The notes beneath the pieces were generated by a model. That model was not told the DNA's origin. It did not search any database and was given only the letters and a program-made list of their open reading frames with translations. DNA of 64,000 nucleotides. It comes from the human T2T-CHM13v2.0 reference genome, Homo sapiens. The translations under genes were made by a program, and so were the position numbers. Shown in pieces: positions 5,272 to 53,350 of this stretch; within the stretch, counting starts at the first letter, position 1; each line of letters begins with the position of its first letter. The stretch is taken from NCBI RefSeq assembly GCF_009914755.1, contig NC_060938.1. One strand, given 5' to 3'.

Positions 5272-5694
<423 letters not shown>

Positions 5695-6783: not shown

Positions 6784-8928
6784 CTGAAAGGAAATGGCAG
6801 TGTTAAAATTAAAAAGCCAATGACCAGGTATATCCCAGATGAGCCATCTAAGAAAAACGATGCAGCAAAACAATCCCATGCCAAAGCTAAGCCCAACGCC
6901 CTCAGGAAGGAGGAGCTCTGGGACTCCCTCTGCGCTCCAGTGAGGAAGCCTCACTTCACCAACGGAGTGCTGGGCACAGCACAAGCAGCCATCAACAGAT
7001 GATACTCTGCTTATCTACATTTATGAGGCCTGGGGCTGCAGCTTCAAACAACTTCACAAAGGAAATCTCACACAGAACGCCAGTATAGAGGGCAGACAAA
7101 AAAAAGGCTGTGCTGGGTGAACCAGAGGTTGAGGTTGCGGGGGGCCCTCCTCTATTACTGCACAGAGCTTTCTGGAACACATGTGGACAGCCGAGGCCGA
7201 GGCCACGGGAAGAGAGATGAGGACCGTTCAGGGCCATGTGTGCGCACATGTAAGGGCACGCACCTGAAGGTGTCACGTCAGGGGACCCACAGGGAGCAGG
7301 TGCCAGGGGCCTGGGAAGGAAGGGGGCACTCCCTTCTCCTGGACATTTGCTATTCTTCAGCTTCTTTGTGTCATTTGCCTCAAATTTACATCTGCCCCAA
7401 AGGAAAAAAATCAAGGTTTATGGTGCTGAGGGCACCTGCCCACCTGGCCACAACAGGTGCTTGCCTGAGTGTGGCTCTGCCATGCCACCCCACTGCAGAC
7501 TTTCAGGAAGGCTGGCACCATTCCCTACAGAGGGCAGGCCATCCCTTCCAGGGCCTGCACACCTCTCCTGGGCCACTCCTCCAGCGGCCCTATCTCGAGA
7601 GCAAACATGTCTACGCTGCTGTGCTATGAACCCCCGTGGCAGGGATGGCATTTCAGTTGTCCCTGCCACCCCCAGCACCCAGCAGGTGCTGAGCTGAGCC
7701 ACCTCAGGAGCCTGCAGAAGAGACACCTGGGGTTCCTCTGCTCACTGTGCCACCAAGGCAAGTTCACTCAGGTTTCCTGGGTCCACAGGGCACCTGGTTC
7801 CAAGGGCTGAGGTGCTCTGCAAACAGCAGATGTCCAGAAAACACCTGCTAGCAAATATGTTTGAAACTGAGCCAAAAACATACTTGGTGATAGCGAATAG
7901 CCTAAAAACAGAATCGGTCCCCTCCCTGAGCAGTGAAAATGTGAAATAAACAAATGCACATCTCTCTTAAAAAAATAAGTAAATTTCAGTATAAGGAAAC
8001 CGTGATAGCGATCAACGGCCCAAAAGCACCATTGTTTATTCAAGTACTGCAATGCAAATCCTTTTCCCTTCTTTTTCCTAAGAGAAGCTAGAGGAAACAG
8101 AACATTTATGAAAAAAGTTCCTATGGTTAGCTGACTGATCGCAAATCTGGCTGCTCAGGGAGATGCACCCAGCACACGAGGCAGATTTCTTCTGTTGGAT
8201 TAGCCTCCACTCAGTGTAAAGATGTAAGACTCCCATTCATTCAATTGTTTCATTACAGTTCTTTACTCAAGTAGAAGACTGTAAGAATGTCATCAAGCTT
8301 TTTAGACCGTGGATAGGGGTAGGAGGTGATGCCAGCTCCTACACTTACCGAGCCTTTCACAAGTAAACTGAAATCGATGTAAACTTCAAGGGGTCTTTTT
8401 AGGATTATTTTCTCACCCTTGTAGGGTTGCTTTTCAAAAATTAAACCAAAGCAGCTTTTGATTTTTGAGAAGGCAGGTACTGTTTACTGTCTCCCTTCTG
8501 CAGAAATTTATAACATGCTCGAATCCAATGACAAGTGCTTCTAACAATTTCCAAGACTAAATACGCCTCAGAGCTACTATGGGCAACTGCAGCCAAGTGA
8601 GGACAGCAAGGGACCTTCTTGAAATGAACGCTCCCCACCTGGGCCACCGGAACTTCCTGGCCAGCCTGGAAGGGTGCTTGAAGGCATGAAGAGGAGAGGT
8701 CGGTGCTTCCAGAACTGTGATGCTTGGGAGGTAGCGAATTCCCCACCACTGGAGGTATGTAAGTAGAAGCTACACGCTCAGCCCCCTGGGGAGGGGAAGG
8801 AAGAATGGGTCCCCCATTTCCACCTTCATTTGGTGTTGGACTCCCGTACAGGACTCAGCTTAAAGGAAAGGTACCGTGGATAAAAACCAGTCTGGAAACC
8901 CAGGCTGGAGGACACAGCACCCTCCCTA

Positions 8929-10779: not shown

Positions 10780-11193
<414 letters not shown>

Positions 11194-12871
11194 TCAGAGG
11201 CCCCATGAGGATGGCTCTGGCTTTAATGCTGGGGTCATACTGCCAGCCCTGAGAGGCTGGGAGGAGACAAAGGGAGCCCCTGAGGGGATAAACTGTTGGT
11301 AAAAGTCACACATATTCACTCTAGGACACATCTCCTGTGTAACACTGTCCGGAACTCCAATCCCTGACTTCCAAGGATCCAAGCCTGTAGCTGAGGATCC
11401 GAAGGTCCTGCTAACCTGACTCACTAAGGACTTCAAATAGAAGTTTATTGCTAACCTCACAATATTCTGTTTTTTCAAAAAGGGAAGCCTTAATCTCTGC
11501 ATGGTGAGACGAACTGCAAGAAAATTTTTACCTTGTGTCTTGTGCTTTTCTGAAATCTCTAACTTTTCTACCATGAACATAAACTCTGGTCAAAATTAAA
11601 TAAAAACATATAAAATCATAAAAGAAAAACAGCCCATAAAACCAACTACCCCACAGGAAAGAGGACAGGCTCTCCCAACACAAGATAAAAATGAACATGG
11701 CTGGCATTCCTAAGAGCTGACAAAGCACTTTGCAGAGCGTCCCACTCCGTGTGCAGAGCCAGGACTCACTGTTGCAGTTCGGCTTCTCCACCCATCAAGC
11801 CGTCTGCCCTCCCAGCCACTCAAAGTCTGGGCTCACTGTGCAGTTTTAAGTGCCCAGAGCTGATGATTTGAAATCAAGGGGAAATTTGGATTTTGAAAGA
11901 TAACCTTGATGAGAAGCAAGATTCAAGTCTGCCTGAATCGGGACAGGTGGAATGAATCGGGACAGGTCATCCTACAGGTGAAGCTAAAATGAGGATCCAC
12001 AGGGGAGGCAGAGATGAGTGAACAGTTAGCATGAGCAGCGAACAGAGAAAGCACAATTCCAACAGCATGCGCGGAAGGCAGGTCTGGAGGACCCGGCACC
12101 ACGGCAGCCCAGGGTTCCCAGAGCGAGGCTCATGAGATGAAGTCAGTGGCACATTAACCGACTCTCATATTTTAGTAATTATGTGTTTATTCTTATGATT
12201 ACCTTGTTTTTATGATGATATGTGTGTTTTCCACTTACAGGACTGATACTAATCTTTCCTTTTAATACATTTAACTACAAACTGTGAATCAATGTAAGGG
12301 AAAACATGCAGGTAATCATATTTTTGTAGGTAATCATAGACGGTATCAGGATATGACAAAAATAACGGAGGTGGTACAGGGATGGCTAGAGACAGGAAAT
12401 GCTCCACAGGTAATGGCCTAGCTGGCCGGCTGGCATTTTCCCTTGCTCGAGGCATGATTTGTGTGCTGATGTTCTTTCTGTCTCCTGCTGTTTTAACTTC
12501 AGCATCCAAGATGTCATAAAACCACAGCACAGTCATAAAACTTCACTCTGGGCTGAACTCTGTCTGGGCAAAATCAATCCAATTAGTCAAAATGCCTGAA
12601 TGGAGCAATCAATCCTTCAAAACAGAACACATTTTATAAGGGCCTTACCGGAAAAGGCCCACAACTCAGTGCTCTGACAAAGGAAGAGGAGAAAAGGGCA
12701 GCAGTTTTAAATTTAGCTGCTTAAAAATAAGTCTTAAAAAAAACCCTCACTTGACAGAGGCTGTACATTTTAGGAAGTGCAGCAACCACCCGCCAGTGCT
12801 GCTTGACACACGGGCAAAACATAAGCTCGCAGGTGCAAGAGACGGGAGGGGGGCACGGCCACTCGACTTAC

Positions 12872-12884
12872 TTAGTACGGACAT
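12872..12884 (-). CDS. CCDC88C: Coding part of the alternative exon of the short Daple-V2 isoform (MSVLS, then exon 26; 552 aa)
   Basis: gccagg-ATG TCC GTA CTA A|gtaagt (A at -3; consensus intronic donor). Splicing to exon 26 gives AGC, so MSVLS-PGDLK, and 5+547 = 552 aa. This matches the recalled isoform 2 / Daple-V2 N-terminus. Confidence 0.85.
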
Positions 12885-13145
12885 CCTGGCCCAAGGACAT
12901 GTGCACGTATATCCTGAGGCTCCCCTAAAACTGTGTTGTGCTGAAGAAATGGTCCAGGGAGTGTGACAACTCATCTTCTATTTTGAAATCAGAATCCACG
13001 CTGGCTACTTTAAGCTTGAAATTGGGGGCAGGAGGAGGGGTCCGCTATCGGCCATCTGGCCTTTTAGACGCTGGCTTTTTTTGTTTGTTTGAATTTCGGA
13101 AATGAAGGAGGGTACACAATACAGACACATGATAAAGGAAAGGGA

Positions 13146-13312
13146 TTAGAAATCTCCAATGTCGGAGAAAGAGAGAGGCTCGTTAGGAGAGGATGGGATG
13201 TCGGAGGAAGACCAGAACCGCAGGCGTTTAGAGAGAGCTGGGTGGGTCGTTGGAGACTTGTCTTTGTCCTTGTTTTTGCTTTTCAAAAAGGGACTCTTTT
13301 TGCGCGGAGGTG
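13146..13312 (-). CDS. CCDC88C: Candidate alternative exon: 55-aa Girdin-like C-terminus APPRKKSPFLKSKNKDKDKSPTTHPALSKRLRFWSSSDIPSSPNEPLSFSDIGDF*
   Basis: Branch-like gctaat, about 90 nt AG-free pyrimidine-rich zone, then tttag|CA at 13313/13312. Phase 1 matches the exon 25 donor. Peptide resembles Girdin KRLPFLRNRPKDKDK at the equivalent position. Confidence 0.65.
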
Positions 13313-14098
13313 CTAAATTGTTATCAATCGGATAACCCAAAGGAGGAAGGAAAAAGAAAACACAAATAAATGAAATGAACAATAATGACAAATGAATCGA
13401 AATTAGCTAAATGTACTTAAGAAATCAGAATCCCGTCTTGCCCAGGAAAGATGAAAACAGTACACAGTACTCAAGAACAGAATCAGGGCTCAGTAATCAT
13501 CTGTGCTCTGACTCAATTAATTTAAAGGCACCTGAACGCCAACAATTTATTTCCTCAGCGTGTGAGGAGAATTACATACTGCCCAAGGAGCCAATGGTCT
13601 GGATGATTTTTCGGTTTCAGTGTGCCAAATTATTAAACACGAATGCTTATTAATTTAGGGCCCAACTTCTCTTACTCATCCATTTTAATGATGGGGTCCC
13701 TAACAGCTCAGCTCACACAATCCTCCCGTTCCCACTCAAAGACCTTGGGAACATTCAATGATCCGTTTCAGGGCGCTGTAATCAAATACTCTACCTGAAG
13801 TATTCACTAATGATTCTGTATCTCTAAAATAATCTTTCGGCAGGATGAGTTTTAAAATAATTTAAATACCTCCTTTGCATACTAAAAAAAACCCTTCAAC
13901 ACCAAGAATCATGATTTCCTTTTAGATCTTCTATATACATCCTCCACTCCAATCCTCCACTCCTTAGCCTCTAGTGTCTTAACAAAGCAGACAATTGGGC
14001 TAACTTCCTAAACTGTCTTATAGTAACATTAATCGACCTAACCAATTTCTGATGTAGGATTAAAGTTGATACCAGGATTTCCATTATTTCTTCCTCCA

Positions 14099-16533: not shown

Positions 16534-16944
<411 letters not shown>

Positions 16945-53128: not shown

Positions 53129-53350
<222 letters not shown>

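What the first reader, a model, noticed from the sequence alone, without database searches (positions are those of the whole stretch)
12872..13410. A 441-nt 'splitter' exon that could end the DAPLE coiled-coil ORF and start Daple-V2 on the same block
Seen: on the gene strand, a branch-like gctaat (about 13402-13407) and a roughly 90-nt AG-free pyrimidine zone lead to tttag|CA at 13312. The frame matches the phase-1 donor of exon 25 and stays open for 55 aa to TAA at 13146. Further on, in the same frame, is ATG TCC GTA CTA A|gtaagt (12884-12872), which splices in frame to exon 26. Acceptor to donor is exactly 441 nt with three in-frame stops. Known (recalled): Daple-V2 is a 552-aa isoform starting MSVLS, usually viewed as having its own first exon. 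Inference: that 'first exon' may also be an internal cassette. Inclusion would give one mRNA with a 1535-aa product lacking the GBA and PDZ motifs, followed by the V2 ORF that has only those motifs. It would be either an NMD switch (stop about 275 nt upstream of the junction) or a bicistronic-like message that uncouples the scaffold from the G-protein/Dvl module.
Basis: partly seen in the sequence, partly recalled or inferred. Interest (0 to 1): 0.85.

Follow-up and report, generated by a model that had tools for sequence, protein, structure and literature searches.

The report
Known poison/first exon of CCDC88C
The 441-base block is a real exon of the Daple gene that public annotation and two papers already record as an internal, stop-carrying cassette as well as the start of the short Daple-V2 form, so the finding is correct but not new.

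Summary
These are the acceptor tttag|CA at 13312, a 92-nt AG-free zone, a 441-nt exon, 55 new codons to TAA 13148-13146, two more in-frame TAGs, and ATG 12884 with donor A|gtaagt. The products are 1535 aa and 552 aa, and the stop lies 274 nt before the junction.

The central inference is already public. RefSeq NR_189159.1 carries 12872-13312 as internal exon 26 of an otherwise full-length non-coding transcript. Park et al. 2019 reported TRA2-beta-dependent inclusion of "exon 26" that adds a premature stop, removes the last 493 aa (2028-493=1535) and may trigger NMD. Elorza et al. 2021 validated an orthologous skipped exon in mouse; their primers map to exons 25 and 26.

New here:
- The acceptor is the weakest in the window (1st percentile), while the donor is ordinary.
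- An in-frame ATG at 12974 gives a 582-aa ORF.
- The exon's 3' part is conserved in bat, marsupial and birds.
- Published V2 assays cannot separate V2 from cassette-containing full-length RNA.

The bicistronic reading is unsupported. Best reading: a hybrid first/internal exon that acts as a poison cassette when internal.

The parts
16581..16819 (-). Exon 25 of NM_001080414.4; its donor is phase 1 (the last base starts codon 1481).
   Evidence: The mouse forward primer of Elorza 2021 maps here at 16788-16808 with 1 mismatch.
13402..13407 (-). Branch-like gctaat, 90-95 nt upstream of the acceptor AG. Its use as a branch point is not shown.
13315..13406 (-). A 92-nt AG-free zone, 72% pyrimidine. 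The pyrimidine tract proper lies about 20-55 nt from the AG, and the last 25 nt are only 52% pyrimidine.
13313..13314 (-). Acceptor AG of the cassette. The -20..+3 PWM score is -2.83 bits, the 1st percentile of 302 chr14 MANE acceptors and the weakest of the 21 exons scored in the window.
   Evidence: The acceptor is used in NR_189159.1.
12872..13312 (-). The 441-nt hybrid exon. It is internal exon 26 of NR_189159.1 (a poison cassette) and supplies the 5' exon of Daple-V2. It is single-copy in the genome and not a masked repeat. Its CpG o/e is 0.64, against 0.36 for the rest of the intron.
13257..13282 (-). Purine-rich patch (73% A+G in the 30-nt bin starting at 13282) just inside the weak acceptor. 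It is a candidate exonic enhancer, by inference only.
13146..13148 (-). First in-frame stop, TAA. It ends a 1535-aa product and lies 274 nt upstream of the next exon junction.
13005..13007 (-). Second in-frame stop, TAG. It aligns with Gln in the Pipistrellus nathusii model P0004.
12978..12980 (-). Third in-frame stop, TAG. It aligns with Glu in P0004.
12972..12974 (-). In-frame ATG (context TAGAAG|ATG|A) with no stop before the V2 ATG. It opens a 582-aa ORF, 30 codons longer than V2.
12898..12900 (-). Out-of-frame ATG (C at -3) opening a 26-codon ORF. That ORF overlaps the V2 ATG and ends 52 nt into exon 26.
12882..12884 (-). The Daple-V2 ATG (context GCCAGG|ATG|T); MSVLS, 552 aa.
12866..12871 (-). 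Donor gtaagt after exon end ...CTAA. PWM score 7.17 bits, the 35th percentile of 296 donors. The same donor serves both V2 and NR_189159.1.
10806..10994 (-). Exon 26 of the main transcript, joined in frame by the cassette donor. It holds the reverse primers of the V2 assays, and the best match to the mouse reverse primer of Elorza 2021 (10886-10866, 4 of 21 mismatches).

Best explanation
Window 12872-13312 is a hybrid first/internal exon of CCDC88C.

Internal use: the exon is spliced between exons 25 and 26 through a very weak acceptor and acts as a poison cassette. The Daple frame runs 55 codons into it and stops at TAA 13148-13146, which is 274 nt before the next junction and has four further junctions downstream. 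By the 50-55-nt rule of nonsense-mediated decay (established knowledge), that mRNA is expected to be degraded. Inclusion therefore lowers full-length Daple output. Any RNA that escapes decay would encode a 1535-aa protein lacking the GBA Phe-1675 region and the C-terminal PDZ-binding end.

First-exon use: only the ordinary donor is used, and the 3' end of the exon supplies the start codon of the short C-terminal isoform Daple-V2.

Shown by annotation or papers: both uses exist, inclusion responds to TRA2-beta, and an orthologous event exists in mouse. Inferred: NMD sensitivity, low basal inclusion because of the weak acceptor, and the position of the V2 transcription start.
For: - RefSeq NR_189159.1 has the MANE exon chain plus 12872-13312 and no CDS. 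No RefSeq transcript starts at this exon.
- Frame, stops and distances were computed.
- Park et al. 2019 (bioRxiv 10.1101/634154, passages read) report that inclusion of CCDC88C exon 26 introduces a PTC, truncates the last 493 aa, and could lead to NMD. CCDC88C is among the sixteen TRA2-beta-regulated events they validated by RT-PCR, and the exon-26 event was also seen in TCGA tumours. 2028-493=1535 matches. The other cassette, 8639-8785, would stop near residue 1568.
- Elorza et al. 2021 (PMC8370404, passages and section 26) found an orthologous skipped exon in human and mouse, with RT-PCR in mouse. Their forward primer maps to exon 25 with 1 mismatch. Their reverse primer best matches exon 26 with 4 of 21 mismatches; the next-best site has 6.
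- Ear et al. 2019 (PMC6702192, sections 5-7 and 29) describe V2 with a unique 5' end from the intron between exons 25 and 26, starting MSVLS.
- Splice-site PWM: acceptor -2.83 bits (1st percentile of 302), donor 7.17 bits (35th percentile of 296).
- Conservation of the 3' part. Bat P0004 residues 3-45 match 13004-12873 in the same frame (E 3e-10, 57% identity). In shuffle tests, the observed score was reached by 0 of 5000 shuffles for zebra finch, 2 of 5000 for canary, 35 of 5000 for a marsupial and 53 of 5000 for tuatara.
- CpG o/e is 0.64 in the exon against 0.36 in the rest of the intron.
- Hybrid first-internal exons are a described, common class (abstracts of PMC8769537 and PMC11797052).
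Against: - I could see no reads, CAGE data or long reads, so inclusion level and the V2 start site are unknown here.
- That Park's 'exon 26' is this exon rests on arithmetic and exon count, not coordinates; their tables are supplementary and closed.
- The Elorza event is placed by primer positions, and its reverse primer matches human exon 26 only imperfectly.
- No source I read tested NMD.
- The motifs I recall for TRA2-beta (GAA/AGAA) are not enriched: there are 3 GAA, and 1885 of 2000 shuffles reach that count. No GCATG lies within 500 nt on either side.
- There is no TATA box, GC box or CpG island, and RefSeq lists no promoter or enhancer here.
- Four of the ten non-human N-termini tested were not significantly similar: manakin, fairywren, tortoise and cobra, and a fifth, sandgrouse, likewise.
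- No rodent protein appeared among the 29 hits or the 35 hits.
Confidence: 0.8

Rival explanations
1. The exon is only an internal poison cassette. 'Daple-V2' would then not be an independent transcript but an annotation derived from 5'-incomplete cDNAs of cassette-containing full-length RNA, with the first ATG in the fragment taken as the start.
For: - RefSeq has no transcript starting at this exon.
- Ear 2019 contains no occurrence of promoter, transcription start, RACE, CAGE, TSS or northern.
- All V2-specific primers lie at 12902-12970 and the probe spans the cassette/exon-26 junction, so the assays also detect NR_189159-type RNA.
- The V2 frame is open for 31 more codons upstream and contains an equally good ATG.
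- There is no TATA box, GC box or CpG island.
Against: - Short models starting in the homologous exon exist in many species, including NCBI models: manakin isoform X3, sandgrouse, and a marsupial partial. Some of these may be projections from the human annotation.
- Bands near 70 kDa are depleted by a 3'UTR shRNA.
- TCGA isoform estimates call V2 the most abundant form besides full length. That is hard to square with an NMD-prone RNA made through the weakest acceptor in the window.
Confidence: 0.12
2. The exon is essentially an alternative first exon. Its occasional use as an internal exon would be splicing noise without regulatory meaning.
For: The acceptor scores -2.83 bits, the 1st percentile and the weakest in the window. 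An open run of 55 codons is not unusual (5.8% of positions).
Against: - Inclusion changed by at least 10% PSI with TRA2-beta knock-down, changed in the opposite direction in TRA2-beta-high tumours, and CCDC88C is among the sixteen events validated by RT-PCR.
- An orthologous skipped-exon event in mouse is altered in a disease model.
- RefSeq curators kept it as a BestRefSeq transcript.
Confidence: 0.1
3. One reading: one cassette-containing mRNA yields both the 1535-aa scaffold and, by downstream initiation, the V2 protein.
For: The two ORFs are non-overlapping and share a frame on one annotated transcript.
Against: - From established knowledge (recalled), reinitiation in mammalian cells falls off steeply with upstream ORF length; here the upstream ORF is 1535 codons.
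- Between the stop and the MSVLS ATG lie ATGs at 13130 and 13055 (a 41-codon ORF) and the in-frame ATG at 12974. Any downstream initiation would favour a 582-aa product rather than the 552-aa one.
- No Rfam family, IRES families included, matches 12300-13900.
- The premature stop makes the RNA an NMD candidate.
Confidence: 0.03
4. The functional product of inclusion is a stable 1535-aa Daple with a dedicated 55-aa tail, that is, a scaffold uncoupled from G-protein and Dvl binding, rather than decay.
For: The frame stays open for 55 codons after the acceptor. The GBA Phe-1675 and the C-terminal end lie downstream, in exons 29-30.
Against: - The open frame begins 31 codons inside the intron, so it is not exon-bounded.
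- The tail has no Pfam match and no paralogous copy in the genome.
- None of the 39 related proteins held carries it; the best E-value was 0.068. Full-length-sized proteins could not be searched because of the length limits.
- The stop position predicts NMD.
Confidence: 0.05

Closest known systems
CCDC88C transcript variant NR_189159.1 (RefSeq), equivalent to 'exon 26 inclusion' of Park et al. 2019
   Same: The exon boundaries are identical (12872-13312) and it is internal between exons 25 and 26. The premature stop removes the last 493 aa, and NMD was suggested.
   Different: Nothing differs; this is the same object. Added here are the splice-site strengths, the upstream in-frame ATG, cross-species similarity of the 3' part, and the assay caveat.
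Daple-V2 (UniProt Q9P219-2, as named in Ear et al. 2019)
   Same: It uses the same donor and the same ATG at 12884, and gives MSVLS and 552 aa.
   Different: V2 is described as starting in this exon, but no start site is mapped in the paper. The genome offers a 582-aa ORF from ATG 12974 if the transcript starts further upstream.
Hybrid first-internal exons (Fiszbein et al. 2022; Mick et al. 2024)
   Same: One exon is used as a first exon in some transcripts and as an internal exon in others, within a long gene (abstracts).
   Different: The abstracts say most hybrid exons keep strong 3' splice sites, whereas this one has a very weak acceptor. That places it nearer the minority that resemble first exons. 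First-exon use is not verified here.
Poison cassette exons coupled to NMD (AS-NMD), as in SR-protein genes (recalled)
   Same: A regulated cassette introduces a premature stop far upstream of the last junction.
   Different: NMD is not tested. The cassette also carries the start codon of a downstream isoform. Conservation is shown only for its 3' part, through protein models.

Membership tests
AS-NMD poison cassette exon | An internal exon with both splice sites used in spliced transcripts. | tested here: met
   NR_189159.1 joins 16581->13312 and 12872->10994. RT-PCR is reported in papers. No reads were seen here.
AS-NMD poison cassette exon | Inclusion puts a premature stop in the main reading frame. 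| tested here: met
   TAA 13148-13146 follows 55 codons, and two further in-frame TAGs follow.
AS-NMD poison cassette exon | The stop lies more than 50-55 nt upstream of a downstream exon junction. | tested here: met
   It lies 274 nt before the cassette/exon-26 junction, with four more junctions downstream.
AS-NMD poison cassette exon | The inclusion isoform is stabilised when NMD is blocked. | not testable with these tools
   No expression data are available here. [quoted passage not shown]
Hybrid first-internal exon | The same exon is used as an internal exon. | tested here: met
Hybrid first-internal exon | Transcripts start in or at the exon (capped 5' ends). | not testable with these tools
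   The only source is the statement of Ear 2019, taken from Ensembl/UniProt. No TSS mapping is reported there, no RefSeq transcript starts here, and promoter motifs are weak.
Hybrid first-internal exon | Both uses share the same 5' splice site. | tested here: met
   The donor at 12872 serves NR_189159.1 and yields the MSVLS|PGDL junction of V2.
Bicistronic / reinitiation mRNA | Two separate ORFs on one mRNA. | tested here: met
   A 1535-codon ORF is followed by a 582- or 552-codon ORF on the NR_189159.1 exon chain.
Bicistronic / reinitiation mRNA | A feature that permits downstream initiation: a short upstream ORF, an AUG-free spacer, or a known IRES or reinitiation element. | tested here: not met
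   The upstream ORF is 1535 codons. The spacer holds ATGs at 13130, 13055 and 12974. There are no Rfam matches.
Bicistronic / reinitiation mRNA | The downstream ORF is translated from that same mRNA. | not testable with these tools
   This needs ribosome profiling or reporters.

The most novel reading that the evidence does not exclude
The exon is an old (amniote-wide) toggle in which internal inclusion (decay of full-length Daple RNA) and internal transcription initiation (V2) are coupled at one weak acceptor. Splicing factors such as TRA2-beta would then set the ratio of full-length Daple to V2. As a consequence, part of what clinical and TCGA studies have scored as 'V2 mRNA' would really be poison-exon-containing full-length RNA, and V2 protein may largely start at ATG 12974 (582 aa) rather than at MSVLS.
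Probability: 0.2. Interest if true: 0.5.

Novelty: already known. Interest (0 to 1): 0.2.

Why it matters
Daple's full-length and short forms are reported to behave differently in Wnt signalling and invasion, and 'V2' mRNA has been used as a prognostic read-out. The V2 assays target sequence and a junction that the annotated poison-exon transcript also contains. Those measurements therefore cannot say which RNA changed. The same exon is reported as mis-spliced in breast cancer cells and in Huntington's disease striatum. Junction-resolved or long-read counting would settle which use dominates. As biology, the exon is an ordinary example of two well-described kinds, poison cassette and hybrid exon, and it is already annotated.

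Tried and rejected
Searches and tests that gave nothing:
- Paralogous or repeated origin. The 54-aa tail and the 441-nt exon hit only themselves in the T2T genome; one E=0.4 hit on chromosome 11 was dismissed. No masked repeat overlaps the exon.
- Tail as a protein. There was no Pfam family for the tail or for the last 35 codons.
- Tail in related proteins. None of the 39 held Daple-related proteins carries the tail. The three Myotis models go from exon 25 directly to exon 26, and the Merops model skips to exon 27.
- Search with bat P0004 residues 1-46. It returned only itself (1 of 1 candidates).
- Length limits. Full-length-sized proteins (about 1500-2200 aa) could not be reached, so nothing can be said about tail-bearing or insertion-bearing long isoforms in other species.
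- RNA family scan of 12300-13900. No matches at E<=1.
- Structure hiding the acceptor. A 20-nt inverted repeat was found, but the fold z-score is -1.35 and 18 of 200 shuffles fold at least as well, so I rejected it as evidence.
- Splicing-factor motifs. TRA2-beta (GAA/AGAA) and RBFOX (GCATG) motifs, both recalled from memory, are not enriched or are absent.
- Promoter motifs. One CCAAT and one Inr-like match, with no TATA or GC box. I kept this only as a lead.
- ORFs on the plus strand. Only short ATG/GTG/TTG ORFs of 55-80 aa, nothing notable.

Literature:
- 'CCDC88C' with 'poison exon' returned 0 papers.
- 'CCDC88C' with 'exon 26' returned 2 papers, one of them relevant.
- 'CCDC88C' with 'alternative promoter' returned 6 listings, none opened for that point.
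- PMC10412668, PMC9499366 and PMC9649613 mention the gene for other reasons.

Supplements I could not see, which may bear on these claims: Park Table S5 (coordinates of the event), Elorza supplementary tables (VastDB event and direction of change), and Ear Supplementary Fig. 1A (transcript IDs and 5' ends).
Full report
OBSERVATION. I read the gene (minus) strand and recomputed every element.
- Exon 25 of NM_001080414.4 (16581-16819) ends after 4441 coding bases, so it is phase 1.
- The block 12872-13312 is 441 nt long.
- Its acceptor is tttag|CA. The nearest upstream AG is at 13408-13407, which leaves a 92-nt AG-free zone that is 72% pyrimidine. gctaat sits at 13407-13402.
- With the base carried over from exon 25, the frame stays open for 55 codons, to TAA 13148-13146.
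- TAG 13007-13005 and TAG 12980-12978 follow in the same frame.
- ATG 12884-12882 reads MSVL and then splices (A|gtaagt) in frame to exon 26.
- The products are 1535 aa and 552 aa, and the stop lies 274 nt before the junction.

As statistics they are modest. Open runs of at least 55 codons occur at 5.8% of 4914 positions in the rest of the intron. The frame here is open for 86 codons and begins 31 codons inside the intron, so it is not bounded by the exon.

WHAT IS ALREADY PUBLIC. The annotation file shows NR_189159.1, a BestRefSeq transcript without a CDS. Its exon chain is that of the main mRNA plus exactly 12872-13312 as its 26th exon. No RefSeq transcript starts at this exon. From memory, RefSeq gives NR_ status to such variants because the premature stop makes them NMD candidates; the file itself states no reason.

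Park et al. 2019 (bioRxiv 10.1101/634154; I read passages) studied splicing events that change on TRA2-beta knock-down in MDA-MB231 cells, and CCDC88C is among the sixteen they validated by RT-PCR. They list 'inclusion of CCDC88C exon 26' among the events that change in the opposite direction in TRA2-beta-high TCGA tumours, and state that it introduces a PTC, truncates the last 493 amino acids and could lead to NMD. 2028-493=1535 is the product I computed. The only other non-coding cassette in the window, 8639-8785, would stop near residue 1568. I therefore take their exon to be this one, although their coordinates are in closed supplements.

Elorza et al. 2021 (PMC8370404; passages and section 26) report an orthologous skipped-exon event in CCDC88C in human and mouse striatum, taken from VastDB and validated by RT-PCR in mouse. 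Their mouse forward primer matches human exon 25 at 16788-16808 with one mismatch. Their reverse primer has its best match in human exon 26 (10886-10866, 4 of 21 mismatches; the next-best site has 6). So the alternative exon lies between exons 25 and 26. The direction of change is only shown in a figure I cannot see.

Ear et al. 2019 (PMC6702192; sections 5, 6, 7 and 29 and passages) describe Daple-V2 (552 aa, MSVLS, UniProt Q9P219-2). They say its unique 5' end is transcribed from the intron between exons 25 and 26. The text has no occurrence of promoter, transcription start, RACE, CAGE, TSS, northern, cassette or nonsense.

ANATOMY ADDED HERE.
1. Splice sites. I built position matrices from 296 GT donors and 302 AG acceptors of MANE transcripts in twenty 10-kb stretches of chr14. 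The cassette acceptor (-20..+3) scores -2.83 bits. That is the 1st percentile and the lowest of the 21 exons scored in the window; the next lowest scores 2.66 bits. The cause is that purines interrupt the last 25 nt and the pyrimidine tract lies further upstream. The donor scores 7.17 bits (35th percentile). An exon with a usable donor and a poor acceptor fits one used mainly as a first exon and only conditionally as an internal one.
2. Start codons. All five ATGs of the exon were listed.
   - 13130 and 13055 are in frame and end at TAG 13007.
   - 12974 (TAGAAG|ATG|A) is in frame with no stop before the V2 ATG, which gives a 582-aa ORF.
   - 12900 is out of frame and opens a 26-codon ORF overlapping the V2 ATG.
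   - 12884 is the V2 start.
   A transcript that starts upstream of 12974 would be expected to give mainly the 582-aa product.
3. Origin. The exon is single-copy, has no paralogous copy and is not a masked repeat. Its CpG o/e is 0.64 against 0.36 for the rest of the intron, but it is not a CpG island (GC 48%).
4. Downstream motifs. The GBA Phe is residue 1675, in exon 29, and the protein ends in ...WYEYGCV. Both lie downstream of the cassette.

CONSERVATION. A search with the last-exon protein (342 aa) gave 29 hits among 1019 candidates, with 6981 candidates left out. I read 26 of the 29.
- Ten mammalian models begin with a few residues joined to the exon-26 equivalent: MSVLS in chimpanzee and gibbon, MLVLS in a lemur, MSVLR and MSVVS in bats, MSFSAPGPGDL in dog and tiger, and fragments in capuchin and lynx.
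- One of these is the 583-aa Pipistrellus nathusii model P0004. Its residues 3-45 match window 13004-12873 in the Daple frame (57% identity, E 3e-10 against a 6.2-kb target). It has Gln and Glu where human has the two TAGs.
- Sauropsid models carry their own N-terminal exon joined to the same junction.
- In shuffle tests against the last 35 human codons, the observed score was reached by 0 of 5000 shuffles for bat, 0 of 5000 for zebra finch, 2 of 5000 for canary, 35 of 5000 for the marsupial Dromiciops and 53 of 5000 for tuatara.
- Manakin, fairywren, tortoise, cobra and sandgrouse were not significant.
- No rodent model appeared.

The 3' part of the exon is therefore old. About the 5' part I can say nothing. 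None of the 39 proteins held carries the tail. A second search with P0004 (35 hits among 1502 candidates) reached only 1006 aa, and the four models that contain exon 25 lack the cassette. Some of these models may be projections of the human annotation, so they are weak evidence for independent transcription starts.

MECHANISM. Best reading (confidence 0.8): this is a hybrid first/internal exon. When internal, it is a poison cassette, because a stop 274 nt before a junction is expected to trigger NMD by the 50-55-nt rule (established knowledge). When it is the first exon, it supplies the V2 start. Hybrid first-internal exons are a described and common class (abstracts only: PMC8769537 and PMC11797052).
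- Shown by annotation or papers: both uses exist, inclusion responds to TRA2-beta, and there is a mouse orthologue.
- Inferred: NMD sensitivity, low basal inclusion, and the V2 start site.
- Against: motifs I recall for TRA2-beta (GAA/AGAA) are not enriched (3 GAA; 1885 of 2000 shuffles reach that count), and there is no GCATG within 500 nt. There is no TATA box or GC box, only one CCAAT (13025) and an Inr-like match (12966). RefSeq lists no regulatory element here.

RIVALS.
- Pure cassette, with V2 an artefact of 5'-incomplete cDNAs (0.12).
- First exon, with inclusion as noise (0.10).
- A stable 1535-aa product as the point of the event (0.05).
It fails on the 1535-codon upstream ORF, the intervening ATGs, the absence of any Rfam match and the predicted decay.

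PRACTICAL POINT. The forward primers of all three V2 assays in Ear 2019 map to 12902-12970, the reverse primers map to exon 26, and the TaqMan probe spans the cassette/exon-26 junction. These assays cannot distinguish V2 from NR_189159-type RNA. The same probably applies to TCGA isoform estimates that rely on an annotation in which only V2 carries this exon. I found no paper saying this in my searches: searches covered Creative Commons PMC and bioRxiv only.

VERDICT. Novelty: already known. Interest: 0.2.

Noticed in passing
window 8639-8785 (minus strand): This is a second exon of the same build. It is 147 nt (a multiple of 3) and internal in NR_189158.1 between exons 27 and 28. In the Daple frame it stops two codons after the junction codon (GG*), then carries an in-frame ATG 49 nt before its donor (MPSSTLPGWPGSSGGP|VSRPSS). 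By position and my length arithmetic, that ATG corresponds to the 478-aa 'V4' first exon of Ear 2019. Its acceptor is the strongest in the window (17.0 bits).
   Followed up: partly
window 12972-12974 (minus strand): An in-frame ATG lies 30 codons upstream of the V2 start, with A at -3 and no intervening stop. It gives a 582-aa ORF that the V2 literature I read does not mention.
   Followed up: yes
window 5398-5687 (exon 29) and Ear et al. 2019: By my count the GBA Phe is residue 1675 of the 2028-aa protein, which is residue 199 of the 552-aa V2. The paper names the V2 mutant F194A, a five-residue numbering difference.
   Followed up: no
window 13303-13322 and 13541-13560: A 20-nt inverted repeat (80% complementary, arms 218 nt apart) spans the cassette acceptor. 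Folding 13290-13575 gives z = -1.35, which is not significant.
   Followed up: yes
window 13305-13337 (minus strand): Translation across the acceptor reads GYPIDNNLAPP, which weakly resembles the start of exon 27 ([11 protein letters not shown]; E 0.8). I take this as chance.
   Followed up: no
window 53156-53302 (minus strand): The donor of this constitutive coding exon is TTG|gtactg. It scores -0.09 bits, below all 296 training donors.
   Followed up: no
proteins P0036, P0038, P0039 (Myotis daubentonii 'Daple-like'): These three NCBI models are only about 59% identical to human exon 25, and each has a different short C-terminal ending after the exon-26 or exon-27 equivalents. They may come from a diverged copy or may be mis-assembled models.
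   Followed up: no
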